Part shown: positions 741-14,526 of the stretch, piece by piece | Position numbering within the stretch: position 1 is the first letter of the stretch | Layout: each line of letters begins with the position of its first letter | Origin: Candidatus Woesearchaeota archaeon | GTDB lineage: Archaea; Nanobdellota; Nanobdellia; Pacearchaeales; GW2011-AR1 | Direction of reading: 5' to 3' | DNA length: 18,198 nt | Assembly (NCBI GenBank): GCA_964530955.1 | Contig: CAZHCL010000006.1 | Coordinates: 28,448-46,645, forward strand | Translations under genes and position numbers: made by a program | The notes under the pieces: generated by a model | Told to the model about the DNA's origin: nothing | Database searches by the model: none | What the model saw: the letters and a program-made list of their open reading frames with translations, nothing else

Positions 741-746
741 CTTTTT

Positions 747-1046: not shown

Positions 1047-1067
1047 TTCTATAACAGGCTCTCGGGG

Positions 1068-1160
1068 TTTAAAATAGTTTGCCCAGTCGGAAGTGCTAAG
1101 TTCTTGTGGCTTGAATAATGATTTTAATAAACGTGGCTCAATAAGGGATAAATATTTAAT
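1068..1160. promoter_or_regulatory. Divergent promoter region with back-to-back TATA boxes
   Basis: TTTTAAA (minus, 1074-1068) and TATTTAAT (plus, 1153-1160), each 22-29 nt before an ATG. Confidence 0.6.
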
Positions 1161-1181
1161 ACTAGTAAATGTCTTAGAAAT

Positions 1182-2115: not shown

Positions 2116-4374
2116 ATGATATTCAAGGACAAGGCGCCGCTATACTCTACGGAGGTGGAAAGAAGACAGGGTGAGGAGATTCTTTACATTAATTTTATGA
2201 ATGCTCCTTTCATCCCTAGTCTTGCCGATGATCCTACAATAATGGGGAGAGTGGTAGATGCGCTTGCTGAAAATCCTGAAATTTCTAGAATTGTTTTTGT
2301 GCAGCAGAGAAATTATAATTATCCTTTTAATCAGATTACATTACTTTCTGAGATAGCCAGAATATACAATTATCTTACTAAACAGGAGGGTTTGCTTTCT
2401 CCTGACAAATTGAGGGTTTATGGAAATGTTCCCGAAATATACGAAGAGATGAGCTCTTTTGTTGGATTACTTAGACAAGATCCGTTATATTGCTATGATA
2501 AATTGAGGAGAAAAATAACTTCTCTTAGACAGGAAAGCCAGACAAATAATCAGGTAATGGGATACCTTAGATTGCTTGAGAGAATTATCTCTTTGCTTGA
2601 TGAGACTGCCATAATAAAAAATTATAGGGATAAAATTGAACTTACTGGAAGACAGGGAAGGGAAATTTATAATAGTATTTTTAGAGCAGATATACTTCCC
2701 AACTTTACTTTTACAAGGCTTGTTGCTCAATTGCCTGATGATGCAGAGCTTGTTGACCAGTATGAGTTAGATTTTCAGTCTGAAAATGCAACTGTAACTG
2801 TGATGAAAAGAAAAAATGATTCTAAATTCTTTTATCATTTGATGCCTCCCGAATATTCTTTGAGTGAGGATCATCATTATTTATTGAATTTAGCTAGGAA
2901 TGTTTTAATTGAACATAGACCAAAGGCAGAGGAATTTACTGACCCTGAAAAGACAAGACATGTTTTTTTCAACGTTGCGAAAGATTTACTAAATGAATTA
3001 AGTCAGAATAAAAAAATAGGGCTGACTTACAATGAACTTAACAAACTTGCTAGGATTCTTGTAAGATATACAATAGGATATGGGATAATTGAAGTTCTTC
3101 TTGCTGATAGTAAGTTACAAGACGTTTCACTAAATGCTCCCATTGCGCAGAACCCTGTTTTTGTAAGGCATCAGGATTATGATGAATGCGTTACTAATAT
3201 AATCCCTAGCTATGAAGATGCCGATTCTTGGGCTGGAAAATTAAGATTGCAGTCAGGCAGACCTCTTGATGAAGCGAATCCTATTTTAGATACTGATTTG
3301 GTTTTTGGGAATGTACGAGCGAGAGTCGCTGCTGTAAAAGAGCCTTTGTCTCCGCAGGGACTTGCCTATGCTTTCAGAAGACATAGAGATGATCCTTGGA
3401 CCTTGCCATTGTTTATCAAAAATAAAATGATTAATTCATTTACTGCTGGGCTGCTTAGTTTCTTGGTTGATGGTAACAGGACTTTATTAGTTGCAGGAAC
3501 AAGAAGCTCAGGAAAGACTTCTCTTCTTGGAGCTTTAATGTTAGAGGTAATGTCAAAAGTAAGAATCATTGTAATTGAAGATACTTTGGAACTTCCTGTT
3601 GACTCTTTAAGAAAAAATAATTATGATATTTTAAGAATGAAAGTTAGAAGTGCATTGCTGGAGGGAACAACAGAAGTTGAGGCATCTGAAGGTATAAGGA
3701 CAAGCCTGAGACTTGGAGATTCTGCGCTTATTATTGGAGAAGTAAGAAGTTCTGAAGCTAAGGCATTGTATGAAGCTATGAGAGTTGGGGCTTTGGCAAA
3801 TATGGTTGCAGGAACTATTCATGGAGATTCTCCCTATGGTGTTTTTGACAGAGTTGTAAATGATTTGGGAGTTCCAGAAACAAGCTTCAAGGCAACGGAT
3901 TTAATTATTGTGGCAAATCCAGTTAGAACTCCTGATGGGTTGCATAATAAAAAGAGAGTTGTAAGCATAACTGAAGTTAGAAAACATTGGAAAGAAGATC
4001 CTATGGAAGAAAAAGGATTTGTTGACCTTTTGAATTACAATGTTGAAAAAGATTCCCTTGAACCTACTGCGGAATTGATGAATGGAGATTCTGAAATAAT
4101 CAAGAGCATTGCGGGAAGTGTGAAGGGATGGGCTGGAAATTGGGATGCTGTTTTTGATAATATAATATTGAGAGGTAAAATAAAGCAGGAGATAGTTGAC
4201 CTTGCTGAAAAGCTGAATAAGCCTGCTTTGCTTGAGGCTAAATTCAATGTTCTTTCAAACAATGCATTTCATAGAATAAGCGATGAAATAAGCGGAGAGT
4301 TCGGTCTTCCTATTAGTGAACAAGTTTTCCCAAGATGGCAGCAATGGGCTTATGATACTGCCAAGAGTTTTTGA
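2116..4374 (+). CDS. Type II/IV secretion / type IV pilus assembly ATPase (VirB11/TadA/PilB/FlaI family) with a long N-terminal extension
   Basis: Walker A GTRSSGKT (aa 461-468), Asp box IIVIEDTLEL, Walker B LIIGEVRSSEA, His box GTIHGDS, and GRPLDEANPILD. TATA box at 2084-2091. Confidence 0.95.
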   Translation: MIFKDKAPLYSTEVERRQGEEILYINFMNAPFIPSLADDPTIMGRVVDALAENPEISRIVFVQQRNYNYPFNQITLLSEIARIYNYLTKQEGLLSPDKLRVYGNVPEIYEEMSSFVGLLRQDPLYCYDKLRRKITSLRQESQTNNQVMGYLRLLERIISLLDETAIIKNYRDKIELTGRQGREIYNSIFRADILPNFTFTRLVAQLPDDAELVDQYELDFQSENATVTVMKRKNDSKFFYHLMPPEYSLSEDHHYLLNLARNVLIEHRPKAEEFTDPEKTRHVFFNVAKDLLNELSQNKKIGLTYNELNKLARILVRYTIGYGIIEVLLADSKLQDVSLNAPIAQNPVFVRHQDYDECVTNIIPSYEDADSWAGKLRLQSGRPLDEANPILDTDLVFGNVRARVAAVKEPLSPQGLAYAFRRHRDDPWTLPLFIKNKMINSFTAGLLSFLVDGNRTLLVAGTRSSGKTSLLGALMLEVMSKVRIIVIEDTLELPVDSLRKNNYDILRMKVRSALLEGTTEVEASEGIRTSLRLGDSALIIGEVRSSEAKALYEAMRVGALANMVAGTIHGDSPYGVFDRVVNDLGVPETSFKATDLIIVANPVRTPDGLHNKKRVVSITEVRKHWKEDPMEEKGFVDLLNYNVEKDSLEPTAELMNGDSEIIKSIAGSVKGWAGNWDAVFDNIILRGKIKQEIVDLAEKLNKPALLEAKFNVLSNNAFHRISDEISGEFGLPISEQVFPRWQQWAYDTAKSF

Positions 4375-4427
4375 TTGTATAATTTAAAATATAAATAGAT
4401 TTAAACTCTATTTGTGAAGATAATTTT

Positions 4428-4832
4428 ATGGAAAGGGAACCTGATTTTTTTGGCAATTGGTCTGTAGGAAATCCATTACTTGGAGCTCTTGCTTCTGCGT
4501 TTGACGACTATGGTTCTTTTAGAATGTATGTTAATGGAAGGCCGCCTTTAAGAGAAGGAGTAGAAAAAATAACTGGAACTATCGAAGATCAGTATGACTG
4601 GGCTATGTTTGATGGAGAGCTATCTGGGCAGGAAATGAGTTTCATGAAAATTTATTCTCCGCAAGCTATTGCAAGAGGAGCAGCACCAAATGGAGTTAGA
4701 TATGCAGGGATTAAATTTCCAGACTCTTTCAGAGGCAAATTTACGGTCGTTAATGGAACTTCTGGGGGAGTTACGGCTGACTGGCAGGGCGAGTTTTATG
4801 TTATTCCAACGGAAGCAATTAGGGGTAATTAA
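4428..4832 (+). CDS. Hypothetical protein, 134 aa, predicted all-beta (Gly/aromatic strand pattern)
   Basis: Alternating strand motifs ITGTIEDQY, FDGEL, SFMKIY, VRYAG, FRGKF, WQGEFY. Own TATA (GATTTAAA 4398-4405) 23-30 nt before the ATG. Confidence 0.7.
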   Translation: MEREPDFFGNWSVGNPLLGALASAFDDYGSFRMYVNGRPPLREGVEKITGTIEDQYDWAMFDGELSGQEMSFMKIYSPQAIARGAAPNGVRYAGIKFPDSFRGKFTVVNGTSGGVTADWQGEFYVIPTEAIRGN

Positions 4833-4848
4833 AACTAATTTTTTACTT

Positions 4849-7008
4849 TTACAACGAATTCAGAGATATCGCTGCGAGCAAGCTCAGAGCGATTATCGAG
4901 CCGAGAGCAGTTATGACATAAAGATAAATGCCTCTTCTGAGATTCTTTGCTAAATCATACTTTTCTTTAAGAGGGTCTCTGCCAGCATCAATGGTTACTA
5001 ATGCTCCAGAAAGGATGAATATTATTTCGACTATGTAAAGACCTATGCTTACTTGTATATAATATGGGGGAATCATTTTTGTAAGGTCAAATATGGATAT
5101 TATTGAACTGAATGTTCCTGTTCCTAATGTGCTGCTTAGGTCTTGGGTTGAAAGAGTTGATTGGAATCCCTGCAATTTGTTTAAAATAAGAGTTATCATT
5201 GATGAAAGTCCTACAACTATTCCTGCAAGCAAGGGTGCAAGGAAAGTCATGTTGGCGCGCATGTCAGAGACAACTTCTGCTAAAAGGTCTCTAAGTCTTT
5301 GATTTATTTTTTGAATGTTTTTGACATAATCTGAAATGGACATTAATGAACGTGCTGCCACCTGAAGACCTTTCTTTACTGATTCAACTAAAACTCTCAT
5401 TGAAGTGGAGATTAATGAAGAAGGATAGTAGGTTATTGCTCCTCTTTTTTTATCGAATATGGCATTTTCTACAGACATTCCTGCCTGTTGGATATTAAGG
5501 TTTACAATCGAGAAGAAACTTTGTGTTGCTTGTCCTTGCGTGCTTTCTGCAACTCTTCCGAAGGCCATTTCGGCTGGTAGACCATCACCCAATCTATTTC
5601 CCAGCTGGAAAATGGAATTTGTGAATTCTTCTTCTAAGGTTTTTGTTTTCTCTCTTGCTTTTATCAAGTCTTTTGTCTTTAGTCGGTATGCTGTTGAGAA
5701 GAAAATGGCTATGCTAAGGGGAACAAATATACTCAACAGAACTCCTGCTAACCCAAAGGGGCCCACTATACTTCCATCTATTATTTTAAAGTCAAAAAGT
5801 TTGCTGTTTGCAATTGAACTTGCAGATATTCCTATATCTCCAAATGTGTAATCGCTTTTCAATCCTAAAGCGGAGGTGAGGAAACTAATCTGGAATATGA
5901 ATGGCAGGATTCCTATAATGAAAAGAGGGAATGCTACTAAAAATGCCCTTATCCAGGGCTTTCTTGAAGTGAATTTAGAATAATCTGGATTCATCTCGAG
6001 GACGGATGACTCCCCATAGCCTCCAGGTCTTTTTAGAAGAACTTCAGAGGCCATGTAAAATACAAAGAATGGAATGATTATATTGAATATGAGAAAGACG
6101 TGTTGCCATTGCACTGCTCCCTGCAACAAAGTTGAAGCTAATGGAAGAAGGGCAAGAGCAAGCGTTGGAAGAATTATTCCAAGCATGTAAATATTTGTCA
6201 TAGGTGCTCTTATTTCTCTGGAATATTTTAGCATCTTTTCGTAAACGCCATCTAAAATGACTTGGAGTGATTTTTCTAAAATTTCTACTCTTCTATTCTC
6301 TGAAGGTTCATACAACGAAGATTCAACAAGGTGAAATGACTCAACAAACTCAGGTGAATAATCTCTCCAGGTTTCAAGGTAATTATCAAGAGCTTGCTTT
6401 ATTGTGGAATATTTTCCTATTTCTATATCATAGAATATTTTTTTAAAGTCAAGGGCGAGGGCTCCTTCGAGATGCTGTGAGGCAAACTCGATTGCTCTTT
6501 CAAGATTTGAGGTGTGCTTCATATAAATTACTACATAAAGAATTGCGGGAACCATCTGTGAGGAGGCTTGGAGTCTCCAGGCGTTTGCAAGTCTCTTTGG
6601 CATGGTGTAAGTATAATAAAATACGAAGAAGCTAGCTATTACTCCAAGGAAGAAAAATAGTAATTGCAATGAGCCATTTATCAGGTAAAATGCTAATGTG
6701 ACAAGAAGAGTTCCTATAAACACTGTGAGCATTGAAAGCACACAGAGAGTTAATGCTTGGCTGGGATTTACATCAAGATGTGCTGTTTCAAGCTGTTTTT
6801 GTATTTTGACTCTATCTTTTTCAGCTATTTTTATTGAAACTAGATTTCCAAGAGATTTTGCCCATTTTTCATATCTTGAGGGGAAGGATATCATTTCATT
6901 CTTGAATTCAAGATACTCTCCTGAAGAAGGGGCTTCATAGGAGGAAGATTCCAGAGTTTGTTCGATTTTCTTGCTATACTTGTCTAATATGTCCTTAGTT
7001 GTTACCAT
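4849..7008 (-). CDS. Type II secretion system F / TadB-TadC-like pilus inner-membrane platform protein with two GspF-type domains
   Basis: 719-aa polytopic protein. Two cytoplasmic GspF-like segments (VIYMKHTSNLERAIEFASQHLEGALALDF; EEEFTNSIFQLGNRLGDGLPAEMAFGRVA) are each followed by TM bundles. It lies near the ATPase and the pilins. Confidence 0.88.
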   Translation of the reverse strand: MVTTKDILDKYSKKIEQTLESSSYEAPSSGEYLEFKNEMISFPSRYEKWAKSLGNLVSIKIAEKDRVKIQKQLETAHLDVNPSQALTLCVLSMLTVFIGTLLVTLAFYLINGSLQLLFFFLGVIASFFVFYYTYTMPKRLANAWRLQASSQMVPAILYVVIYMKHTSNLERAIEFASQHLEGALALDFKKIFYDIEIGKYSTIKQALDNYLETWRDYSPEFVESFHLVESSLYEPSENRRVEILEKSLQVILDGVYEKMLKYSREIRAPMTNIYMLGIILPTLALALLPLASTLLQGAVQWQHVFLIFNIIIPFFVFYMASEVLLKRPGGYGESSVLEMNPDYSKFTSRKPWIRAFLVAFPLFIIGILPFIFQISFLTSALGLKSDYTFGDIGISASSIANSKLFDFKIIDGSIVGPFGLAGVLLSIFVPLSIAIFFSTAYRLKTKDLIKAREKTKTLEEEFTNSIFQLGNRLGDGLPAEMAFGRVAESTQGQATQSFFSIVNLNIQQAGMSVENAIFDKKRGAITYYPSSLISTSMRVLVESVKKGLQVAARSLMSISDYVKNIQKINQRLRDLLAEVVSDMRANMTFLAPLLAGIVVGLSSMITLILNKLQGFQSTLSTQDLSSTLGTGTFSSIISIFDLTKMIPPYYIQVSIGLYIVEIIFILSGALVTIDAGRDPLKEKYDLAKNLRRGIYLYVITALGSIIALSLLAAISLNSL

Positions 7009-7075
7009 CTTTTTTCAGTTATTTTACTGGCTTAGAAAGGAAAATGTAAGTTATAAATTGTGCGGTTTATTATTG

Positions 7076-7480
7076 CTAAGATTCCATAAAGTTCATAGTC
7101 TTTTTGAAGCCAAGCTTTTTGAAAATATTTAGGTTTCTATCAGCAGTAAGCAAAACCATTTTTCTTTTTGGTGTTTTTCTATTTTTATACTTCAAAGCTT
7201 CTTTAATAAGAGTTTTGGCAATTCCTTTATTCCTCCACTCTTTTAGGACATATATATCTTCAAGCCACAGCCACCTACTATCTTTATCTTTTCTTAAGGA
7301 GAGATATCCTATAATTTTGCCTTTTTCTTTTGCTGTTATATAGACTTGTTTTTTGTTTTTAATTATGGATATAAAGTCAGACCTGCTGTTAGGATTCCAC
7401 CATTTCAATTCTGAGTGGGCTATCAAATCTATTTTGGCCAGTTCAGTTGCATCCGCTAATTTTGCAAATTTAGTTTCCAT
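7076..7480 (-). CDS. GNAT family N-acetyltransferase
   Basis: KIIGYLSL...LWLEDIYVLKEWRNKGIAKTLIKEA (acetyl-CoA motif A) and C-terminal IFKKLGFKK. Confidence 0.92.
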   Translation of the reverse strand: METKFAKLADATELAKIDLIAHSELKWWNPNSRSDFISIIKNKKQVYITAKEKGKIIGYLSLRKDKDSRWLWLEDIYVLKEWRNKGIAKTLIKEALKYKNRKTPKRKMVLLTADRNLNIFKKLGFKKTMNFMES

Positions 7481-7503
7481 ATTTTAATTAATAATTGATA
7501 GAT

Positions 7504-7529
7504 TATTAATTTATCTAAATAGTTATATA
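7504..7529. promoter_or_regulatory. Divergent TATA boxes for the GNAT gene and the wHTH gene
   Basis: ATTAATAA (minus, 7511-7504) and TTATATA (plus, 7523-7529) at leaderless spacing from ATG 7480 and ATG 7552. Confidence 0.55.
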
Positions 7530-7551
7530 GGTATTTCTTATTTCTATAAGC

Positions 7552-7956
7552 ATGCTAGAAACATATTATCTTAGGGAATCTTTAGTTCTTTTAACATTGG
7601 AAGAATTGGAAACCAGAAATCTTGCTCCAATTAGAGAGTATGAATTTCATCAACTTGTAAGAAAAATTCAACCCCAAGACCAAATAGTTTTTAGGTACAT
7701 AGATGAGCCAATTTCCTATAGTTATGACTTAAGTGGATTTATTGAAATGTTGGAAAGGAAAGCTCTTGTAGATAATTTCATTCTTATTAATGGAGGGCTT
7801 ACTCGTACTAATAATTACCAGCTGACTCGAGTTGGAAGAGCAGAAGCTCGGGATTGGATGCAAGATGTTCGTCTTAGAAGAGATTTGACTGAAAGGATAC
7901 GTCTGGGCATTGAATCTTCTGTTCTTTTGCTTACCGAATCTTTAGAAGTCAGATAG
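7552..7956 (+). CDS. Winged-helix protein (YwgA/SocA-like pattern)
   Basis: P-x-SYDL...IEMLERKALV...YQLTRVGRAEA matches the wHTH wing signature. Own TATA (TTATATA 7523-7529). Confidence 0.6.
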   Translation: MLETYYLRESLVLLTLEELETRNLAPIREYEFHQLVRKIQPQDQIVFRYIDEPISYSYDLSGFIEMLERKALVDNFILINGGLTRTNNYQLTRVGRAEARDWMQDVRLRRDLTERIRLGIESSVLLLTESLEVR

Positions 7957-7969
7957 TTTAGTAGCAACA

Positions 7970-7978
7970 GATTTAATA
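7970..7978 (+). promoter_or_regulatory. TATA box at the head of the pilin array
   Basis: GATTTAATA 22-30 nt before ATG 8000. Confidence 0.6.
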
Positions 7979-7999
7979 ATACTGGAAATATATTTTTAT

Positions 8000-8164
8000 A
8001 TGGATAGAAAAGAGAGGAAGGGTCAGATAGAATTTAACACAATCGTCTATTGGATTATAGGGACACTAGCAGTTGTTTTTGGAATAATTGAAATTATTTA
8101 TCTTAATGGAAAGGGAGTTAGTTTCTTTGATGCGATAAAAAATTTATTCCACCCCATAGGATAG
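8000..8164 (+). CDS. Micro-pilin 1 (54 aa, class III signal peptide RKG/QIEF)
   Basis: Hand translation MDRKERKG/QIEFNTIVYWIIGTLAVVFGIIEIIYLNGKGVSFFDAIKNLFHPIG*. TATA GATTTAATA at 7970-7978. Not in the ORF track. Confidence 0.85.
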   Translation: MDRKERKGQIEFNTIVYWIIGTLAVVFGIIEIIYLNGKGVSFFDAIKNLFHPIG

Positions 8165-8173
8165 ATATCCACA

Positions 8174-8977
8174 ATGAACAAAAAAGCTCAAACACTTTCT
8201 TATATTTTGTACCTTATTATCGCACTATTAGTTGTTTTTATTGCTGTAAAAGTTTACTATAATTCTGGTAATTATTTTAAGAGTAATGCTGATCTTATCC
8301 CTAATTTCAATGACAGTGTGCAAAAAGTTTCTGGAATTGAGATTATAAGATATGATATTGTGAAAGATGCATTGCAGTATTATGATTCGGGTTATAGATG
8401 GCAGGCATTTCCAGGGACATTATCTCTTGATGAAAAAGATTTAAGTTATGTTGACGCCCATAATGTATTTGTCAATTATTATATAAAAGCAACTAGAAAA
8501 AGTCTTACAGTAAAAATTGATAACAGCAATGATTATGTAATTTTTGAAAGTGTAAAGCAAGGACCTCCTTCTGGAACTACCAATTCAAATTTATTTAATT
8601 TTGTTGCCAATAAGATTAATCCGCCAATACAGACTTCAGGAGGAGATGTTGTCGCTTATTTGTATACTAATGGAAACTATTCTGGGTGGTACGATGTAAA
8701 TGTTAACCATGCTCTTTCTTACTATCCTTCTTCTGGCAAGGAAAACAGAGATGAAGCAATCTTGGCTTGGAATGATGAACTGATAAAACAAGCAGATAAC
8801 TGGAGAGATTCGGTTCTTAATATTCCGGTTACATTGGCTTACACCGACACAAGTACAAAAGCAGTAAAGACAATACTTGTATGTCCAATTCCTATATTTG
8901 AGAATAATGGAAAATATTATGATTATCTAAGTTTTGATTTGGAGAAGGAGGCTCAGCCTGGTGATTCCTGCTCTTAA
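8174..8977 (+). CDS. Pilin-like protein 2 (class III signal peptide KKA/QTLS), 267 aa
   Basis: MNKKA/QTLSYILYLIIALLVVFIAVKVYY followed by an N/S/T/Y-rich extracellular domain with sequons and a C-terminal Cys pair. Confidence 0.85.
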   Translation: MNKKAQTLSYILYLIIALLVVFIAVKVYYNSGNYFKSNADLIPNFNDSVQKVSGIEIIRYDIVKDALQYYDSGYRWQAFPGTLSLDEKDLSYVDAHNVFVNYYIKATRKSLTVKIDNSNDYVIFESVKQGPPSGTTNSNLFNFVANKINPPIQTSGGDVVAYLYTNGNYSGWYDVNVNHALSYYPSSGKENRDEAILAWNDELIKQADNWRDSVLNIPVTLAYTDTSTKAVKTILVCPIPIFENNGKYYDYLSFDLEKEAQPGDSCS

Positions 8978-9104
8978 TTTTATTTTCGGGAATAGAAAGG
9001 CTCAGATGTATAGTTGGTTAGATAATCTTGCCTTGTGGATTACTTTTCTTATTATTGTGGCTGGAGCAATAATATATTTCATACTGAAGAAAAATATTGG
9101 ATAG
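8961..9104 (+). CDS. Micro-pilin 3 (47 aa from a GTG start; RKA/QMYS; 33-aa mature peptide)
   Basis: GGAGG at 8947-8951, 9 nt before GTG 8961. Translation MIPALNFIFGNRKA/QMYSWLDNLALWITFLIIVAGAIIYFILKKNIG*. Overlaps the previous gene by 17 nt. Not in the ORF track. Confidence 0.7.
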   Translation: MIPALNFIFGNRKAQMYSWLDNLALWITFLIIVAGAIIYFILKKNIG

Positions 9105-9140
9105 CGCAATTGTTTTAAATCCTATATTCTTATGACTTTA

Positions 9141-10217
9141 ATGAGATTATTCAAAAAGGGGCAGATAGAAGTTTACCAGGTTGTTATGCTTATTTTGTTT
9201 GTTGTTGGATTAGCAATACTCTTATTTTTTTGGTATTCTTTCAAAAATACTACTAATCTTAGCGATGATACTTGTCATCTTTCCGCGCTTACAAGGGGAA
9301 CTACTCCTTCTGCAGGTCAGTCTTATATTCCACTAAAATGTACTACAAAGAAAATCTGTATTACATCAGATTCTTCAAAGAAGTGTACTGATTCTTTTGC
9401 AGGAGAGAGCGATATAAGTGTCGTTGCACTGCCTTCCGATAATCTCAGGGCGGCGAATTTGATTGAGAAAACTAGTGTTGAATCAATGTACAACTGTTGG
9501 AGTATGCTTGGACAGGGAAAGCTTGATTTGGTTGGGAATTTTCCTGAGCAATTTGGCTTAACTTCAAGCAGTCTTGCCAAACCTTATTGCATAATTTGTT
9601 CTAGAGTTGCGATAGACAAGAGTGTTGATGGAAATATTATGAAAAATGTTAATCTTTATAGCTATATGAAATACAATGGGCCAACAGGTCAGCAACTGAC
9701 TTATTTACAGTTGTTTACTGACCCTCAATTTAAGTCTTATCCCGTAGTCAATCCAAGTTCATATCAAGATATAGGAAATAAGGACTCTTCTGGAAAAGAA
9801 GTCAGCATAAATTCAAGTCAGAATCAAATAGCATTTGTTTTCATGCAGATAAAGGCAAAAGATATATCTAAAGTTATAGCTAATCTTGGAGAGGCAGGAG
9901 CAATTACCTTGGGAGGATCTTTCTTAACAGGACCAACAAGGTCTGCTGCTGGAGCACTCATATTTTCAGGAGGAGTGGCTGGATTTATTTACAAAGCAGC
10001 AATAGCTACAGGGATTATTGGACAAGCTGCGATTAATACTTATTCAGGACAGATAACTGCTGCTGGTTACTGTGGAGCATTTACTGGAGAGAGTCAAAAT
10101 GCAAATTTGGCAAGCGGTGCAGCTGGAACAAGCAATGGTTGTTCTTTGATTCAGAGCATTCCTTATAGCGCAAATTCGGTAAATCAACTTTGTAGTGTGA
10201 TAGATGGAAATCCTTAA
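9141..10217 (+). CDS. Large pilin-like protein 4 (KKG/QIEV) with 10 Cys and an internal Gly/Ala-rich hydrophobic segment; start 9141 (9132 also possible)
   Basis: MRLFKKG/QIEVYQVVMLILFVVGLAILLFFWYSF. TTTTAAA at 9113-9119 fits a leaderless start at 9141. Confidence 0.85.
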   Translation: MRLFKKGQIEVYQVVMLILFVVGLAILLFFWYSFKNTTNLSDDTCHLSALTRGTTPSAGQSYIPLKCTTKKICITSDSSKKCTDSFAGESDISVVALPSDNLRAANLIEKTSVESMYNCWSMLGQGKLDLVGNFPEQFGLTSSSLAKPYCIICSRVAIDKSVDGNIMKNVNLYSYMKYNGPTGQQLTYLQLFTDPQFKSYPVVNPSSYQDIGNKDSSGKEVSINSSQNQIAFVFMQIKAKDISKVIANLGEAGAITLGGSFLTGPTRSAAGALIFSGGVAGFIYKAAIATGIIGQAAINTYSGQITAAGYCGAFTGESQNANLASGAAGTSNGCSLIQSIPYSANSVNQLCSVIDGNP

Positions 10218-10784
10218 ATGAAAATAAAAGAAAAAAGAGGCGATTTGAAGGAGCATATCGGAGATATAATCATAGGAATATTATGTCTTGCTTTGATAAT
10301 TGCTGCGATTGTTATAATATACAAAGTTTTTGTAAATCAGGAAGCTCAAAATGCTAAGGTCACAATTGATGGAATAGAGGCAAAGATAAATAATCTTGCT
10401 GTTGGGCAGAATGGAACATTCTCTGTTTCTGGATTTCCAGGAGCAGCGCCAAGTGATATAACTGCTGCTCGATGGTATTTTATTGGATGGAGCAAGGCTG
10501 AGACGGGTAGACCTGGCGCTTGTACTTATGAAAGCTGTTTATGCATATGTAAGGGTTCATTGGGTGCAGATAAGAGTGCTCTTGCAGCTGAATGTGACAA
10601 AGAAGGATTTTGCAGGGCTTTCCCAGTTTCAAGTATACAGGTACAGACCAATTTTAAGGCTACTGAGTTTGCAGGAAAAAATGTACCTTACATAAGGCTC
10701 GAAAGTAATTTATTAGATATAAATGTGGTTAAAAAGAAAGACAATATTGAGGTATATCATGATGACTATTTTTCAATTCTTTAA
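10218..10784 (+). CDS. Pilin-like protein 5 (KRG/DLKE), 188 aa
   Basis: MKIKEKRG/DLKEHIGDIIIGILCLALIIAAIVIIY plus a Cys cluster CTYESCLCIC...C...C. The ATG directly follows the upstream TAA. Confidence 0.82.
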   Translation: MKIKEKRGDLKEHIGDIIIGILCLALIIAAIVIIYKVFVNQEAQNAKVTIDGIEAKINNLAVGQNGTFSVSGFPGAAPSDITAARWYFIGWSKAETGRPGACTYESCLCICKGSLGADKSALAAECDKEGFCRAFPVSSIQVQTNFKATEFAGKNVPYIRLESNLLDINVVKKKDNIEVYHDDYFSIL

Positions 10785-11199
10785 TAGAAAAGCAGAAGGC
10801 GACCAGGTTTTAGGTACGGTAGTTTACATAATATTAGTCTTGCTTTTTTTTATAGGGATGTTTTATTATGTCTCTTTACAGAGGAATGGTGCTGCAGCTT
10901 CTGAAGATTTTTATGCGAAAGAAATTAGCAAGGTAATTAATTTTGCACATCCTGGTGATCAGATAGTTTTTGATGTTCAGACGCCAACAGAGATAGCAGC
11001 CAAAAGTGGAATAAAGGATTCAAAAGAGATTTTTAATTTTGATAATACAAATAAACAGGTTTGCGTCAAATTAAGTGCAGGTATAAGAAGTTGTTATAGT
11101 TATTTTAACAATGTAAATATTTCTGACTGGAAAATAAATTATGGGGTTCCTAAAAATATGCTAATAATAAATATTGCCGGAGGAAAAAATGCTGCGTAA
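10759..11199 (+). CDS. Pilin-like protein 6 (RKA/EGDQ); start moved to 10759 (or 10762)
   Basis: MMTIFQFFNRKA/EGDQVLGTVVYIILVLLFFIGMFYYV. GAGGT at 10749-10753 precedes the ATG. Overlaps the upstream gene. Confidence 0.82.
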   Translation: MMTIFQFFNRKAEGDQVLGTVVYIILVLLFFIGMFYYVSLQRNGAAASEDFYAKEISKVINFAHPGDQIVFDVQTPTEIAAKSGIKDSKEIFNFDNTNKQVCVKLSAGIRSCYSYFNNVNISDWKINYGVPKNMLIINIAGGKNAA

Positions 11200-11665
11200 T
11201 AAGAGGGCTGAGATGGGCTCGCAGATAATGGTTTTGGCTACATTGTTTTTAATGGTAATAATTGCTGTCGGGATTGCTGCGGGTGTTAGTCTTTATTTTG
11301 GTTCAGGAGTTGATGCAAGGCAAGCAGATGCAGACATATTAAAGTATAAAATTGAAAATTGCTTTAATGAAAAAAGTATTTCAGATATAGGGAAAAACAT
11401 TTTTGATTCATGCGGGTTAAATAAAGATTCTTTTAATGGAAATAGCTTAGTATTCAAGATTTGTGAAAATTCAAATCTTAATGATTGTACAACAAGTAGT
11501 GCTTCTTTCCTTTCTTCTGGAAGTAATTTCCAATCTTGCTTATTTACTGGAAAAGAGTCGAGTAATACTTTTCTTAAATGTTCATATGCTCAGATATCAA
11601 GGGATGGAAGGAATTTTGTTTTAATTACTGGAAGCAGTCAACAGATAAGGAGGATAAACGCATGA
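11189..11665 (+). CDS. Pilin-like protein 7 (KRA/EMGS); start moved to 11189
   Basis: GGAGG at 11179-11183, then MLRNKRA/EMGSQIMVLATLFLMVIIAVGIAAGVSLYF. Cys-containing extracellular domain. Confidence 0.82.
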   Translation: MLRNKRAEMGSQIMVLATLFLMVIIAVGIAAGVSLYFGSGVDARQADADILKYKIENCFNEKSISDIGKNIFDSCGLNKDSFNGNSLVFKICENSNLNDCTTSSASFLSSGSNFQSCLFTGKESSNTFLKCSYAQISRDGRNFVLITGSSQQIRRINA

Positions 11666-12300
11666 TGAATAGGAAAGCAGAAGGACCTTTTTCGATAACT
11701 ATGACTACAATACCTATAATGATTATACTTGTGGTTCTAATGGGTCTTTTTATATTTGCTGCGTATTTGGAGTCTCGCTCAAAGCCAGGAATTAATTCAG
11801 ATGCATTAGGCATTCAAATTTCTGAGGATTCTTTATTGTTCAAGCAGATACAGGTTGATGCACAACAAATGCCTCTTGCCGAGGGTTTGATAAAGTATCC
11901 TTATGAAAAAGTGCCTACTGGTCTTTCTTCTTTACAGGATAGAAGTGCATTTACTAAAAGTTATATTGATGCACTTCTATCTTTTGTCAAGTCGCAGACT
12001 TTACCTTCAAGTACTCTTTCTTGGGAGAGCGGAGAGTGTTTTTCTATTGCGATAGAAGATTTTACAAATGGAATTGGAAGATTTGCAGTAATAAATAAAG
12101 ATTCAAAAGGAATTGTTTCTACAGAAAAAGATGAAATGTATAAAATTGATTCCAAGACTAAATCTGGCAGCAAGAAAAATGTAGTAATTACAACTGGAGA
12201 TACATCTCATAGTGATACTTTTGGATATAATTATATTCCTTTGACAATTAATGGAAATTCAGGGGCAATCCTTTATTACTTTGTGAGGTGCTCAGGATAA
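11662..12300 (+). CDS. Pilin-like protein 8 (RKA/EGPF); start moved to 11662
   Basis: AAGGAGG at 11647-11653 and an ATGA start/stop overlap. MMNRKA/EGPFSITMTTIPIMIILVVLMGLFIFAAYL. Confidence 0.82.
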   Translation: MMNRKAEGPFSITMTTIPIMIILVVLMGLFIFAAYLESRSKPGINSDALGIQISEDSLLFKQIQVDAQQMPLAEGLIKYPYEKVPTGLSSLQDRSAFTKSYIDALLSFVKSQTLPSSTLSWESGECFSIAIEDFTNGIGRFAVINKDSKGIVSTEKDEMYKIDSKTKSGSKKNVVITTGDTSHSDTFGYNYIPLTINGNSGAILYYFVRCSG

Positions 12301-12301
12301 G

Positions 12302-12769
12302 ATGGAAAAAATAATTAACAGAAAAGGAAGCATTTCAACCACTTCTTTATTATTTGTAGCTATTATCCTAATAATCATGGCATGGACTTCTTTCATTTTC
12401 TCAAATTCTGATAATCAGGTGAAGTCAGAATCAATTTCTAACACTCTTTCTCAGGTAGAATTTACTTAGAAATATATTCTTGCTGAATCTGCTTCTATCG
12501 CGAAGCAGGTTGTTTTGTCAAAAACGAGTGATAGTGAACTGAAAAATACTTACATTCAGGATTCGCTTGCTCACAAATTAGGAATAGAGGAAGAGGGGAA
12601 CCTTTTTGCCAAGATAAAAAATGGAGATTTTAGTTTTTCAAAGGATGGAGAGCAGTATGTTTTGCAGGTAAATGAAGTCGGATTTGAATCTAAAGGACCT
12701 GATGCAGATATTAAAAGGACTTTCGACATAAACCTTAGATTTGACAAAGACGGTAACTTAGCGACATAA
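12302..12769 (+). pseudogene. Pilin-like gene 9 (RKG/SIST) interrupted by an in-frame TAG at 12467-12469 (codon 56); 155 aa if read through
   Basis: MEKIINRKG/SISTTSLLFVAIILIIMAWTSFIF...QVEFT*KYILAESASIAKQVVLSKTSDSELK... The track ORF 12515-12769 is the same frame. Pseudogene, sequencing error and readthrough cannot be told apart from this sequence. Confidence 0.75.
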
Positions 12770-12771
12770 CA

Positions 12772-12779
12772 TTTATAAA
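12772..12779 (+). promoter_or_regulatory. Consensus TATA box for pilin 10
   Basis: TTTATAAA 22-29 nt before ATG 12801. Confidence 0.65.
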
Positions 12780-12800
12780 TAAGGATTAATTTGGTTATCT

Positions 12801-13448
12801 ATGCTCATAAAAAGAGGAATGAACAGAAAAGCGCAGGAGACTACTCCTTTATCTAATATTGCTGGGGTGATTATTATTGTGGCTATTGTTGTTATTTTGC
12901 TTACTTTGGCGTTTAATGCTTACGGGAAAGGAAAGACTGTTGCTACTTCTCTTCCAAGTGATTTAACAAGTCTTGTAACTGCATGTAATGGTTATGTTTC
13001 CTCTTCTATTACTTCTACTCAGGTAGATTATTGTAAGTTTAGAGAAATTACACTTAATGGTGTTGATCAGTATATAAATTGTGCAAACCCTGCTGTTCAG
13101 GGTTATATGGATTCTCAGAATAGGGGTGTCTTCAATTGTAATTCTGACAGTACTAATCCTCCTGAGAAACAGGAATGTATTACTTTGTTCAAGCAAGGAA
13201 TTAAGAATCCTTTGGTAGTTGGAGGGTTGAATGTTAACTGTGCCAATCCTGCAACGAATACAATAACTCCAATAACATGTAATGATCTTGGCGGAGTGGT
13301 TTCTGCTTTCAACAAGGCTTGTCCTGCAAAGAATGCGGCTGGACAGTTGATTGGTACTGGTACAGCCGATCAGACAAGAGCAGTAAATGGTTACAATGCT
13401 GGAGCTGAAAAAGATAGTGTGTGTTGCGTAGTGCCTTTGTCAGCTTAA
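12801..13448 (+). CDS. Cys-rich pilin-like protein 10 (RKA/QETT), separately promoted
   Basis: MLIKRGMNRKA/QETTPLSNIAGVIIIVAIVVILLTLAF, 10 Cys, C-terminal C..LGG...C...CC module. TTTATAAA at 12772-12779. Confidence 0.85.
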   Translation: MLIKRGMNRKAQETTPLSNIAGVIIIVAIVVILLTLAFNAYGKGKTVATSLPSDLTSLVTACNGYVSSSITSTQVDYCKFREITLNGVDQYINCANPAVQGYMDSQNRGVFNCNSDSTNPPEKQECITLFKQGIKNPLVVGGLNVNCANPATNTITPITCNDLGGVVSAFNKACPAKNAAGQLIGTGTADQTRAVNGYNAGAEKDSVCCVVPLSA

Positions 13449-13482
13449 TAAGATATTTAAATTAGCTTTTCTCTTTTTAATA

Positions 13483-13617
13483 ATGGATTATGATTTTCCT
13501 CAGAGAAGAAAGAACAAGAATGACAAAAGGTCTAAGTCTAGGTTTAACAAATATAAGAAGGGCGGCCAGCACAGGACTAGTAATGTTTCAATTTCTTCGC
13601 ATCCTCCTGCTAAGTAA
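13483..13617 (+). CDS. Small basic protein (44 aa, 13 K/R)
   Basis: MDYDFPQRRKNKNDKRSKSRFNKYKKGGQHRTSNVSISSHPPAK*. TTTAAA at 13456-13461 sits at the leaderless spacing, and the ORF fills the gap between pilin 10 and the peptidase. Confidence 0.5.
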   Translation: MDYDFPQRRKNKNDKRSKSRFNKYKKGGQHRTSNVSISSHPPAK

Positions 13618-13662
13618 AACTGTATAGGATAGATTAATAAATAATTATTCTCTGGTTTTGAG

Positions 13663-14526
13663 ATGGAAGAGTATTACTTTTTATTTTTGATTGCATTCGT
13701 TTATACTATTTTTGCAGCTGTGCAGGACCTTAAAGAAAGAGAAGTTGCTAATTGGCTTAATTTCTCGTTGATTGCCTTTGCTTTGGCTTATAGAGCTATT
13801 TATTCCTCTTACACTGGCAATTATTCTTTTCTATTGTTTGGAGTTCTGGGATTTGGAGTTTTCTTTTTAATTTCCAATTTACTCTATTACACTAAGGTTT
13901 TTGCAGGAGGAGATGCTAAACTGCTCATGGCTTTTGGGGCAATATTGCCTTTCCAGTCATACTTGGATCTTGCGACTCTAAGTCTTAGCTTTCTTTTTGT
14001 GTTATTCTTTATAGGAATGATTTATGGAGCGATATATAGCATCTTTCTGGCTGCCACAAATAAAACTAAATTTAGTCGGGAGTTTAGGGAACAGTTTAGA
14101 AAGAGAAAATATCTTCTTCTCTTTAGTATTCTTGGAATAGCGATAATTATTGCTAAATCTTTCGGCGTTTTGTCATATTTGCCTTCCTGGTGGTTCTTTG
14201 CTCTGCTATTTATTTTCATGCCTTTGCTTTATATTTATCTTGAGGCAGTTAATAGAAGTTGTATGATAAAAATAGTTGATGCTAGCAAATTAACTGTGGG
14301 AGATTGGCTTGAACAGAATGTAAAAATTGGAAGCAAAACGATAAGAAAAAGTGTTCATGGCTTAAGCGCTAGTGAAATAAAAGCACTACAGAAAGCTAGG
14401 AAGAAAGTGATTGTAAGATATGGAATTCCTTTTGTGCCTGCTTTTCTCTTGGCTTTAATTTTTATGGTATTCTTCTTTTTAGTTTCAGGACTTGACTTTC
14501 AGAGCTTTTTCTCTTCTCTATTTTGA
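13663..14526 (+). CDS. Archaeal prepilin/preflagellin peptidase (A24 family, PibD/FlaK-like)
   Basis: First Asp motif AAVQDLKEREVANW, catalytic GGDAK (GxGD), C-terminal GIPFVPAFL, multiple TM helices. Confidence 0.93.
   Translation: MEEYYFLFLIAFVYTIFAAVQDLKEREVANWLNFSLIAFALAYRAIYSSYTGNYSFLLFGVLGFGVFFLISNLLYYTKVFAGGDAKLLMAFGAILPFQSYLDLATLSLSFLFVLFFIGMIYGAIYSIFLAATNKTKFSREFREQFRKRKYLLLFSILGIAIIIAKSFGVLSYLPSWWFFALLFIFMPLLYIYLEAVNRSCMIKIVDASKLTVGDWLEQNVKIGSKTIRKSVHGLSASEIKALQKARKKVIVRYGIPFVPAFLLALIFMVFFFLVSGLDFQSFFSSLF

What the first reader, a model, noticed from the sequence alone, without database searches (positions are those of the whole stretch)
2116..14526. Complete DPANN type IV filament system with ten consecutive, mutually dissimilar pilin-like genes
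Seen: ten tandem plus-strand genes (8000-13448), each starting with basic residues, then G/A, then a ~20-aa hydrophobic helix. Precursors range from 47 to ~360 aa and I see no shared globular sequence among them. They are flanked by an A24 peptidase, a PilB/FlaI-type ATPase and a double-TadC platform. Established: these are the core parts of archaeal type IV pili. No ArlF/G/H or archaellin-like N-terminus is visible, so it is not an archaellum. Inference: a multi-subunit pilus or pseudopilus of a probably host-dependent archaeon, possibly for host attachment or macromolecule uptake. I cannot place its subunit set in the Aap, Ups, Epd or bindosome classes.
Basis: partly seen in the sequence, partly recalled or inferred. 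Interest (0 to 1): 0.82.

Follow-up and report, generated by a model that had tools for sequence, protein, structure and literature searches.

The report
Conserved DPANN type IV filament locus
This is a real, complete pilus-building gene cluster (motor ATPase, very divergent membrane platform, leader peptidase and ten unrelated pilin-like subunits, one of them broken) of a tiny Pacearchaeota-type archaeon. It is standard equipment of that lineage and was flagged before, but no one has shown what the filament does.

Summary
Between 8000 and 13448 there are ten tandem plus-strand genes. Each has a short basic leader ending in [KR][GA], followed by a helix of about 20 hydrophobic residues. They share no similarity beyond that helix. 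One of them (p9) is cut by an in-frame TAG.

The flanking genes are:
- a TadA/FlaI-type ATPase with invariant catalytic motifs;
- the genome's only A24 prepilin peptidase;
- a 719-aa membrane protein with no Pfam hit of its own, whose homologues carry two T2SSF repeats.

The locus is syntenic in Pacearchaeota/Woesearchaeota MAGs. The platform family was found in 299 of 301 genomes sampled in the lineage. Six of the ten pilin families (p1, p4, p5, p6, p7, p10) recur across relatives, and the other four vary.

It is not an archaellum. It does not meet the Epd (system 1) criteria that I tested. Its architecture fits archaeal "system 2" (N-extended ATPase, single platform gene, many pilins), but the PilB3 signature domains were not detected.

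Hamm et al. 2024 already flagged T4P-like loci with coiled-coil partners in these lineages. This scan has also reported the same locus type on other genomes. The function (adhesion or host contact) remains inference. I classify it as a new member of a known kind, of moderate interest.

The parts
3..740 (-). g01: soluble coiled-coil-type protein with a Q/Y-rich linker. It runs off the window start (296 aa in the contig). It is probably one of the 'CCP' partners of DPANN T4P-like loci.
   Evidence: Found just upstream of the ATPase, mostly on the opposite strand, in 58 of 80 related loci. With g02, a hit is present in 58 of 62 loci that have upstream flank. No TM segment and no Pfam family. Hamm et al. 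2024 describe CCP genes beside the CpaF/TadC genes.
747..1190 (-). g02: 147-aa soluble coiled-coil-type protein, the second CCP-like partner.
   Evidence: Present in 61 of 80 related loci, directly upstream of the ATPase and divergent from it. No TM segment. Only weak coiled-coil Pfam hits.
2116..4374 (+). Assembly ATPase (752 aa) of the TadA/CpaF/FlaI (VirB11-type) family, with a unique N-terminal extension of about 215-290 aa.
   Evidence: PF00437 E 2e-15. TIGR03819 TadA 134.6 bits and FlaI 118.3 bits, both below their cut-offs. PDB ranking: A. fulgidus GspE 2oap > CpaF > FlaI. Walker A lysine, Asp box, Walker B and His-box histidine are invariant in 81 orthologues.
4849..7008 (-). Platform protein (719 aa, about 9 hydrophobic segments) with two highly divergent T2SSF repeats (about 150-290 and 460-600).
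   Evidence: No Pfam or NCBIfam hit of its own. 22 of 50 homologues hit PF00482, several in two stretches, best E 3.2e-10. AF2 model pLDDT 87; Foldseek match to the EpsF cytoplasmic domain 2vmb_B with prob 1.00 and TM 0.69. N-half versus C-half hhalign E 0.002. Next to the ATPase in 45 of 46 loci with enough flank. Family present in 299 of 301 genomes of the lineage.
8000..8164 (+). p1: micro-pilin (54 aa, 46 aa mature). A helix-only subunit with a conserved amphipathic tail. Candidate major pilin (Flp/EpdE-like in size).
   Evidence: Leader MDRKERKG|Q. The family is present in 30 of 38 arrays, most often (15 of 30) as the first gene. TATA-like TTTAATAATA about 25 nt upstream of the ATG.
8174..8977 (+). 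p2: pilin-like protein, 267 aa. Lineage-variable.
   Evidence: Leader MNKKA|Q plus hydrophobic helix. Orthologues found only in 2 close relatives.
8961..9104 (+). p3: second micro-pilin (47 aa, about 33 aa mature), directly ahead of p4.
   Evidence: NRKA|Q plus helix. Equivalent 36-50-aa class-III ORFs sit ahead of the p4 orthologue in L007, L010, L011, L015 and L019.
9132..10217 (+). p4: largest and most conserved pilin-like subunit (361 aa). It has a Cys-rich alpha/beta domain of unknown fold on a long N-terminal helix.
   Evidence: Leader ...KKG|Q. Orthologues in 31 of 38 arrays. Conserved C48/C76/C122/C153/C156 and CW.M.GEGK.D / YC.ICSR.AFD motifs. AF2 pLDDT 75 with helix 14-57. No PDB fold match. 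Only DPANN 'hypothetical' clusters in the ESM Atlas. Only one strong TM segment.
10218..10784 (+). p5: conserved pilin-like subunit, 188 aa.
   Evidence: Leader MKIKEKRG|D. Family present in 28 of 38 arrays.
10747..11199 (+). p6: conserved pilin-like subunit, about 150 aa (start uncertain, 10723-10768).
   Evidence: NRKA|E plus helix. Family present in 24 of 38 arrays.
11174..11665 (+). p7: conserved pilin-like subunit, 163 aa.
   Evidence: NKRA|E plus helix. Family present in 25 of 38 arrays.
11662..12300 (+). p8: pilin-like protein, 212 aa. Lineage-variable.
   Evidence: MMNRKA|E plus helix. No orthologue detected in the 80 loci.
12302..12769 (+). p9: pilin-like gene broken by an in-frame TAG at 12467-12469. 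A 55-aa N-terminal piece is followed by about 99 further in-frame codons.
   Evidence: NRKG|S plus helix. Orthologues in L010 and L011 are continuous (about 160-174 aa) and have Tyr where the TAG lies.
12801..13448 (+). p10: last pilin-like gene (215 aa; probable start MNRKA|Q at 12819). Alternative candidate major pilin.
   Evidence: Family present in 22 of 38 arrays, most often near the end of the array and sometimes duplicated (26 copies). It has the highest mature N-terminal identity among the six widespread families (0.28).
13663..14526 (+). A24 prepilin (class III signal) peptidase, 287 aa, 6-8 hydrophobic segments.
   Evidence: PF01478 E 1.5e-13. FlaK model 44 bits, below its cut-off. 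D22 and D84 (GGD) are invariant in 16 orthologues. It is the only A24 gene found in the 83%-complete genome.

Best explanation
The locus encodes a type IV filament (T4F) assembly machine of a Pacearchaeota/Woesearchaeota-type DPANN archaeon.

Proposed mechanism:
1. The pilin-like precursors insert into the membrane through their N-terminal helix.
2. The A24 aspartyl peptidase removes the short basic leader after [KR][GA] (family consensus M-N-K-[KR]-[GA]|E/D/Q).
3. The hexameric VirB11-type ATPase, docked on the two-repeat T2SSF platform, uses ATP to lift processed subunits out of the membrane into a helical fibre held together by the hydrophobic helices.

A helix-only micro-pilin (p1) or the last gene (p10) most likely forms the shaft. 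The conserved set p4-p5-p6-p7 would form a priming or tip complex, like minor pilins. The variable members (p2, p3, p8, p9) would diversify the surface.

The two soluble coiled-coil proteins encoded divergently upstream probably act with the ATPase's unique N-terminal domain on the cytoplasmic side.

The most likely role is adhesion to surfaces or to a host cell.

Shown here: the identity and integrity of the four core parts, the motif, the synteny and the near-universal conservation. Inferred: cleavage, filament formation, which subunit is the major one, and the biological role.
For: ATPase:
- Family hits.
- Walker A lysine, Asp box, Walker B and His-box histidine are invariant in 81 orthologues.
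- Nearest solved relatives are afGspE 2oap (118 bits), CpaF (101) and FlaI (66).

Platform:
- 22 of 50 homologues hit T2SSF, in both halves.
- The fold matches the EpsF cytoplasmic domain.
- There is an internal duplication signal.

Peptidase:
- PF01478 hit, with both catalytic Asp invariant.

Pilins:
- Ten in a row, P about 1.5e-10.
- Across 288 array proteins from related loci, positions -4 (N, 52%) and -3 (K, 76%) are enriched although the search rule did not require them.
- The G/A column is conserved in the p1 and p4 alignments.
- The p4 model has the long N-terminal helix typical of pilins.

Synteny:
- The order CCP< CCP< ATPase> platform, pilin array, A24> recurs in Pacearchaeota/Woesearchaeota MAGs.
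- Of 46 loci with >= 9 kb downstream flank, 45 have the platform and 35 have >= 5 tandem class-III genes.
- The platform family is in 299 of 301 sampled genomes. That tally includes two unpublished genomes, G243 and G244; without them it is 297 of 299.

Literature:
- Hamm et al. 2024 found proteins of the homologous nanohaloarchaeal loci in proteomes.
Against: - No experiment shows cleavage, a filament or a phenotype in any member of this lineage.
- None of the ten pilin-like proteins matches a known pilin family. The p4 domain has no known fold.
- The window's own platform is recognisable only transitively.
- One pilin gene is broken, and the platform is inverted relative to most relatives.
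- The genome has a second, canonical T4P locus and only one peptidase. The peptidase's position therefore does not prove it is dedicated to this array.
- The choice of major pilin is a guess based on size, position and conservation.
Confidence: 0.85

Rival explanations
1. The machine builds no long pilus. It makes a short pseudopilus or a surface-display/secretion device (T2SS-like or bindosome-like). The many dissimilar class-III proteins would then be anchored or presented at the envelope rather than polymerised into a fibre.
For: There are ten unrelated globular domains, several of them Cys-rich, and no obviously dominant major pilin. The 2026 census proposes that T4F machines functionalised by class-III-signal binding proteins are widespread in archaea (abstract). 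Further class-III-like proteins are scattered across the genome.
Against: No substrate-binding-protein domain was detected in any array gene. The BasE model scores 64.6 bits against a cut-off of 1000. Conserved helix-only micro-pilins are what shaft subunits look like in Tad/Epd systems (PMC13705601).
Confidence: 0.12
2. It is a DNA- or macromolecule-uptake (competence-type) pilus that feeds a cell with a very small genome.
For: The genome is small (761 kb at 83% completeness). A many-minor-pilin layout resembles Com/T4aP systems (my own knowledge, not tested).
Against: No ComEC channel was found in the genome, although the genome is only 83% complete. No retraction ATPase or DNA-binding domain was detected in the locus.
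Confidence: 0.06
3. The N-termini are ordinary Sec signals or uncleaved membrane anchors. The clustering with the T4F genes would then have no functional meaning.
For: My motif rule also picks up Sec-like signals elsewhere in the genome. No signal-peptide predictor was available.
Against: The leader N-K-[KR]-[GA] is conserved in 288 proteins from related loci, at positions the rule did not impose. The hydrophobic stretches are about 20 residues or longer, and I saw no AxA-type site after them when reading the sequences. The array is syntenic with the ATPase, platform and A24 peptidase across the lineage. Poisson P is about 1.5e-10.
Confidence: 0.03
4. It is a degenerate archaellum (a rotary swimming organelle).
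For: The ATPase hits the FlaI model at E 3.7e-34.
Against: That score is 118 bits against a 550-bit cut-off, and it is lower than the TadA score. No archaellin reaches the cut-off anywhere in the genome. None of the locus genes scanned against Pfam matched an archaellum accessory family. The FlaI-like ATPase of the genome sits in the other locus, on C5.
Confidence: 0.01

Closest known systems
Type IV pilus-like loci with coiled-coil proteins (CCPs) of 'cluster 2' DPANN (Hamm et al. 2024, Nat Commun, PMC11291902)
   Same: Same lineages (Woesearchaeota and Pacearchaeota are named). A CpaF-type ATPase and a TadC-type platform sit next to one or two coiled-coil protein genes. Here g01 and g02 lie upstream of the ATPase, and a hit to one or both is present in 58 of 62 related loci with upstream flank.
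   Different: The figure legend of that paper lists filament proteins (FlaF, PilA) only for its locus 1. In the text I read, it does not describe a ten-gene class-III array or the adjacent A24 peptidase. I did not test its proposed sigma-1-like fold for the CCPs. Here the CCPs have no signal peptide or TM segment, which suggests a cytoplasmic role.
Archaeal T4F 'system 2' / clade 2 (e.g. Haloferax volcanii PilB3-PilC3, Archaeoglobus fulgidus loci; PMC13705601, PMC4858521)
   Same: An ATPase with an extended N-terminus, a platform encoded by a single gene, and multiple pilins in the locus (definition). The best solved relative of the ATPase is the A. fulgidus GspE-type ATPase 2oap.
   Different: No PilB3_N or PilB3_C domain in P0002 or in 23 orthologues. 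The platform is too divergent for the T2SSF model. The pilins match no known family. No MinD-like ATPase or large adhesin-like protein showed up among the locus genes scanned against Pfam. The phylogenetic position was not determined.
Epd pilus of Methanococcus ('system 1' / clade 1) and the bacterial Tad/Flp pilus
   Same: A dedicated-looking peptidase inside the locus, at least five minor-pilin-like genes, tiny helix-only pilins, Gln at +1 in five of the ten proteins, and an ATPase that scores best on the TadA model.
   Different: System 1 has two platform genes, whereas this locus has one. The Class_IIIsignal (DUF361) model finds nothing in the genome. No DUF2341 adhesin or FleN/MinD matched the locus genes scanned against Pfam. 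The peptidase has 6-8 predicted TM segments rather than a clear 9-TM EppA form.
The genome's own second T4P locus (contig C5)
   Same: The same four-part logic and the same single A24 peptidase available.
   Different: The C5 ATPase is FlaI-like over its full length (386 bits). Its platform is split into two ArlJ-like genes. Its pilins carry the standard archaellin/pilin N-terminal domain with hydrophobic +1 residues. The window's system is the divergent one.

Membership tests
Type IV filament superfamily (core machine) | VirB11/PilB-type secretion ATPase with intact Walker A, Asp box, Walker B and His box | tested here: met
   PF00437 E 2e-15. Walker A lysine, Asp box, Walker B and His-box histidine are invariant in 81 orthologues.
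Type IV filament superfamily (core machine) | Polytopic platform protein with T2SSF (PilC/TadC/ArlJ) domains | tested here: met
   The window's own sequence has no hit. However, 22 of 50 homologues hit PF00482, in two stretches, with two of the ten members examined individually above the cut-off. The fold matches the EpsF cytoplasmic domain with prob 1.0. The evidence is transitive.
Type IV filament superfamily (core machine) | A24 prepilin peptidase with two catalytic aspartates | tested here: met
   PF01478 at 51.5 bits against a cut-off of 26.5. D22 and D84 are invariant in 16 orthologues.
Type IV filament superfamily (core machine) | Substrates with a class III signal peptide (short basic leader, G/A at -1, hydrophobic helix) | tested here: met
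   All ten have the motif. The leader consensus is conserved in 288 related proteins. Actual cleavage cannot be tested with these tools.
Archaellum | Archaellin (PF01917) filament subunits | tested here: not met
   There is no hit above the cut-off in the genome. The best is 18.7 bits, on another contig. The genome is 83% complete.
Archaellum | ArlI-type ATPase reaching the equivalog score | tested here: not met
   118.3 bits against a cut-off of 550.
Epd pilus / archaeal system 1 (clade 1) | Two separate platform (TadC) genes | tested here: not met
   There is one 719-aa gene with two repeats. Definition taken.
Epd pilus / archaeal system 1 (clade 1) | Pilins with the DUF361 / Class_IIIsignal motif (PF04021) | tested here: not met
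   No match at E <= 1 anywhere in the genome, while the M. jannaschii control rings. No hit in the ten proteins.
Epd pilus / archaeal system 1 (clade 1) | 9-TM EppA-type peptidase | tested here: inconclusive
   Hydropathy gives 6 strong hydrophobic segments and, on my reading of the sequence, up to 8. There is a weak Arc_PepC_II hit at E 0.05. No EppA model was available.
Epd pilus / archaeal system 1 (clade 1) | ATPase inside clade 1 of the archaeal secretion-ATPase tree | not tested
   No named reference sequences for clades 1-4 could be fetched with these tools.
Archaeal system 2 (clade 2) | N-terminally extended ATPase, single platform gene, multiple pilins | tested here: met
   About 215-290 extra N-terminal residues. 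One platform gene. Ten pilin-like genes. Definition taken.
Archaeal system 2 (clade 2) | PilB3_N / PilB3_C accessory domains on the ATPase | tested here: inconclusive
   None were reported in P0002 or in 23 orthologues. The Atlas lists these domains only in more distant Methanobacteriota clusters. I could not confirm that the local Pfam copy holds these two models, and only a minority of members of those Atlas clusters carry the domains.
Cluster-2 DPANN T4P-like locus with CCPs (Hamm et al. 2024) | Coiled-coil protein gene(s) adjacent to CpaF-like ATPase and TadC-like platform in a cluster-2 DPANN genome | tested here: met
   g01 and g02 lie upstream of the ATPase and are conserved in 58-61 of 80 loci. 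The relatives are Pacearchaeota/Woesearchaeota. The coiled-coil character was read from the sequence only. The sigma-1-like fold was not tested.
Bindosome / Aap / Ups (Sulfolobales systems) | System-specific ATPase and subunit models (BasE, BasC, UpsA, UpsF) | tested here: not met
   BasE scores 64.6 bits against a cut-off of 1000. There are no Bas or Ups hits for the platform or the pilins. By contrast, such weak hits do appear for the C5 locus.

The most novel reading that the evidence does not exclude
This near-universal machine, together with its two coiled-coil partners, could be the dedicated host-contact apparatus of Woese-/Pacearchaeota. A filament tipped by the conserved Cys-rich p4-p7 complex would recognise or breach the host envelope. 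The rapidly changing subunits (p2, p3, p8, p9) would set host specificity. That would make it the archaeal counterpart of the Saccharibacteria episymbiosis pili, and a handle for predicting hosts of uncultured DPANN.
Probability: 0.15. Interest if true: 0.85.

Novelty: new member of a known kind. Interest (0 to 1): 0.45.

Why it matters
Pacearchaeota and Woesearchaeota are abundant, uncultured archaea with very small genomes that are presumed to depend on hosts. How they attach to anything is unknown.

- A groundwater study stated that type IV pilus components are missing in DPANN (10.1101/2020.05.14.094862).
- The 2026 census reports that Nanobdellati rarely show an ordered T4F locus.

This locus contradicts both for this lineage. 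An ordered, complete machine is present, and its platform family is in 299 of 301 sampled genomes. It probably escapes detection because neither the platform nor any of the pilins reaches a standard family model.

The six conserved pilin families and the p1 micro-pilin family are concrete targets for metaproteomics, antibody or cryo-ET work, and for improved MacSyFinder models.

The value lies in the lineage-wide picture. This particular window is only one more copy.

Tried and rejected
- Pfam and NCBIfam on all ten pilin-like proteins: only noise.
- Pfam on 19 p1 orthologues: a single Flp1_like hit at E 0.0014 and two N_methyl hits at E 0.84. These are leads only.
- Full-length Foldseek of the platform model: no hit at E <= 0.001. 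Only the local EpsF-domain match and a PilC model (3jc8) were informative.
- Direct sequence and profile searches of the platform against the PDB: EpsF only at E 0.35.
- p4 structure: Foldseek and the VIA-align wide search gave nothing above Z 4.5. So no known fold was found, which does not prove a new fold. The Gly/Ala-rich segment of p4 (about 255-320) is modelled with low confidence and does not pass a TM hydropathy threshold, so I do not treat it as a membrane-inserting hairpin.
- PF04021 (Epd-type signal), archaellin and ComEC searches of the genome: negative.
- PilB3_N/C domains in the ATPase family: none reported.
- Pfam on g01, g02, the 291-aa upstream gene, the 134-aa genes and the ATPase N-domain: nothing usable.
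- ATPase phylogeny against named Aap/Ups/Epd/Bas/ArlI/PilB3 references: not possible.
- The supplements of the 2026 census are not held, so I could not see how it classifies these genomes.
- One findings look-up failed because it had too many words.

Full report
**What is in the window**

The window is G000:C6:28448-46645 of a 761-kb, 26-contig genome that is 83% complete. ORF listing and translation show ten consecutive plus-strand genes between 8000 and 13448. They are tightly packed, with gaps of 0-31 nt or overlaps.

Each begins with a short basic leader ending in [KR][GA]. Next comes Q (5 genes), E (3), D or S, and then about 20 or more hydrophobic residues. Precursor sizes run from 47 to 361 aa.

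Using one explicit rule, 69 of 2688 genomic ORFs >= 45 aa qualify (0.09 per kb). The array has ten in 5.45 kb, Poisson P about 1.5e-10, and that figure counts the array's own hits in the background.

All-vs-all BLASTP finds no similarity beyond the N-terminal leader and helix (best E 0.002). So "mutually dissimilar" is correct.

One gene, p9, is cut by TAG at 12467-12469. Its orthologues in two relatives are continuous proteins of about 160-174 aa with Tyr at that position. The window therefore has nine intact genes and one nonsense-interrupted gene. A sequencing error would look the same.

**The three machine parts**

*ATPase.* The 752-aa product of 2116-4374 hits PF00437. It hits the TadA (134.6 bits) and FlaI (118.3 bits) models, both far below their equivalog cut-offs. 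The Walker A lysine, Asp box, Walker B and His-box histidine are invariant in 81 orthologues. A family profile ranks solved structures as A. fulgidus GspE 2oap (118 bits), CpaF (101) and FlaI (66). About the first 215 residues are unmatched.

*Peptidase.* The 287-aa product of 13663-14526 is an A24 peptidase (PF01478). Both catalytic aspartates are invariant. It is the only A24 gene found in the genome.

*Platform.* The 719-aa minus-strand protein (4849-7008) has no Pfam or NCBIfam hit of its own.
- An exhaustive search found a family of 1028 representatives.
- 22 of 50 aligned members hit T2SSF, with stretches in both halves, best E 3.2e-10.
- The AlphaFold model (pLDDT 87) contains a domain that Foldseek matches to the EpsF cytoplasmic domain (prob 1.00, TM 0.69).
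- The two halves align to each other at E 0.002.

So the platform assignment is right, but it rests on transitive evidence. It is one gene with two repeats.

**Comparative evidence**

The ATPase has full-length orthologues at 52-73% identity in at least 132 genome records, 80 of which were fetched. Nearly all are labelled Pacearchaeota, Woesearchaeota or Nanoarchaeota MAGs.

tblastn of the window's proteins against those loci shows a recurring order. Two soluble coiled-coil-type genes lie divergently upstream. Then come the ATPase, the platform, a pilin array and the A24 peptidase. These are followed by the same HIT, aEF-1beta and RPA neighbours.
- Of 46 loci with at least 9 kb downstream flank, 45 have the platform and 35 have five or more tandem class-III genes (up to 11).
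- Of 62 loci with upstream flank, 58 have the coiled-coil genes.

In 288 array proteins from related loci, the leader consensus is M-N-K-[KR]-[GA]. N at -4 (52%) and K at -3 (76%) were not imposed by my rule. That is independent evidence for a conserved processing site.

Clustering the array proteins gives six families that recur in 22-31 of 38 arrays: p1, p4, p5, p6, p7 and p10. The families p2, p3, p8 and p9 are restricted to close relatives or to this genome.

A profile of the platform family found a match in 299 of 301 genomes sampled across the phylum, in 223 of 225 genera. Two of these, G243 and G244, are unpublished; without them the tally is 297 of 299. The system is therefore core equipment of the lineage.

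**The subunits**

*p1.* This family is most often (15 of 30) the first gene of the array. Its members are 47-58 aa, with one helix and a conserved amphipathic tail (consensus ...KG.S.ID.IKNLFRFG). Its size is that of the helix-only shaft subunits of Epd and Tad/Flp pili (PMC13705601). A TATA-like box lies about 25 nt upstream of its ATG.

*p10.* This family most often lies near the end of the array and is sometimes duplicated. It has the best-conserved mature N-terminus among the six widespread families. It is the alternative candidate for the major pilin.

*p4.* This is the most conserved subunit.
- It has five conserved cysteines and two conserved motifs.
- Its AF2 model (pLDDT 75) shows a 44-residue N-terminal helix followed by an alpha/beta domain.
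- No solved fold matches it.
- Only DPANN "hypothetical" clusters resemble it in the ESM Atlas.
- Its Gly/Ala-rich segment is poorly modelled and is not hydrophobic enough to call a TM hairpin.

**What it is not, and what it resembles**

*Not an archaellum.* No archaellin reaches the cut-off in the genome. The FlaI-like ATPase of this genome sits in a second, canonical T4P locus on contig C5. That locus has pilins carrying the standard archaellin/pilin N-terminal domain and a platform split into two ArlJ-like genes.

*Epd / system 1 criteria that were tested are not met.* There is one platform gene, not two. There is no DUF361/Class_IIIsignal match, while the M. jannaschii control rings.

*System 2 architecture fits.* The 2026 census defines system 2 by an N-extended ATPase, a single platform gene and multiple pilins. 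The nearest solved ATPase comes from A. fulgidus, a genome in which the census reports similar loci. However, PilB3_N/C domains were not reported in 24 family members. I could not build a tree against named references, so membership is open.

*No ComEC was found*.

**Prior knowledge**

- Hamm et al. 2024 (PMC11291902) reported two conserved type IV pilus-like loci with coiled-coil proteins across cluster-2 DPANN, including Woesearchaeota and Pacearchaeota. They list CpaF and TadC in each locus but filament proteins only in their locus 1.
- Sivabalasarma and Albers 2026 (PMC13705601) found T4F components in 2942 Nanobdellati genomes. They state that ordered loci are rare there and that pilins are scattered.
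- He et al. 2020 wrote that T4P components are missing in DPANN.
- This scan's own records show that the same locus type was noted and followed up on several other genomes. I used those notes as leads and checked the Hamm paper myself.

What I did not find in the papers I read:
- the ordered array of about ten genes with its six conserved families;
- the adjacent peptidase;
- the near-universality of the platform;
- the fact that the platform and pilins fall below standard model thresholds.

**Verdict**

The mechanism is the standard T4F one:
1. leader removal by the A24 peptidase;
2. ATP-driven extraction of helix-anchored subunits on a T2SSF platform;
3. a shaft of p1 or p10;
4. a conserved minor-pilin complex.

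Confidence that this is a working T4F machine is about 0.85. Confidence in any specific role (adhesion or host contact being the most likely) is much lower. This window is one more member of an already flagged, experimentally unstudied DPANN locus type, and its interest is moderate.

Noticed in passing
window 12302-12769: Pilin gene p9 is interrupted by an in-frame TAG (12467-12469). Continuous orthologues in L010 and L011 have Tyr at that position. This could be a recent nonsense mutation, a sequencing error or read-through. The 55-aa stump would still look like a micro-pilin.
   Followed up: yes
G000 contig C5, locus L087:3538-10652: There is a second, canonical type IV pilus locus. It has three pilins with the archaellin/pilin N-terminal domain, a 509-aa FlaI-like ATPase (386 bits), a platform split into two ArlJ-like genes (432 + 296 aa) and one more pilin-like gene. 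It has no peptidase of its own.
   Followed up: partly
window 13663-14526: This is the only A24 peptidase found in the 83%-complete genome. It would have to process two leader classes: +1 Q/E/D in this array, and +1 I/L/V in the C5 locus and in stand-alone pilins.
   Followed up: partly
window 3-1190 (and L088:6298-7638): Two soluble coiled-coil-type proteins lie upstream of the ATPase and divergent from it (one has a Q/Y-rich linker). They are conserved in 58-61 of 80 related loci and probably correspond to the CCPs of Hamm et al. 2024. They have no signal peptide or TM segment, which suggests a cytoplasmic rather than a surface role.
   Followed up: partly
window 4849-7008 versus loci L017-L086: The platform gene is inverted (minus strand) in this genome and its closest relatives. 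It is co-directional with the ATPase in most other relatives.
   Followed up: no
window 4428-4832, 7076-7480, 7552-7956: Three genes sit inside the locus: an unknown 134-aa protein, a GNAT acetyltransferase and another unknown 134-aa protein. None has a counterpart in any of the 80 related loci, so they look like lineage-specific insertions.
   Followed up: no
G000 contigs C1, C12, C13, C15, C16 (e.g. C16:16030-17101, C12:20281-22131, C1:99063-99869): At least ten further proteins with [KR][GA]|Q-type class-III-like N-termini are scattered over the genome. One of them is a 616-aa protein. They are possible extra substrates of the same peptidase.
   Followed up: no
loci L059 and L083: Two records labelled 'bacterium' and 'uncultured Methanosarcinales archaeon' carry the same DPANN-type ATPase at 53-66% identity. 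These are probably mis-binned or mislabelled contigs.
   Followed up: no
L088:4906-7188 (upstream of the window): Several short stretches upstream of the window read as N (withheld). They fall inside small membrane-protein genes and at the 3' end of g01.
   Followed up: no
window 2116-2760 (ATPase residues 1-215): The N-terminal extension of the ATPase is strongly conserved, with many invariant residues across 24 orthologues. It matches no Pfam family or solved structure. The Atlas suggests similar long forms in Aenigmarchaeota and in a 708-aa Thermoproteota cluster.
   Followed up: partly
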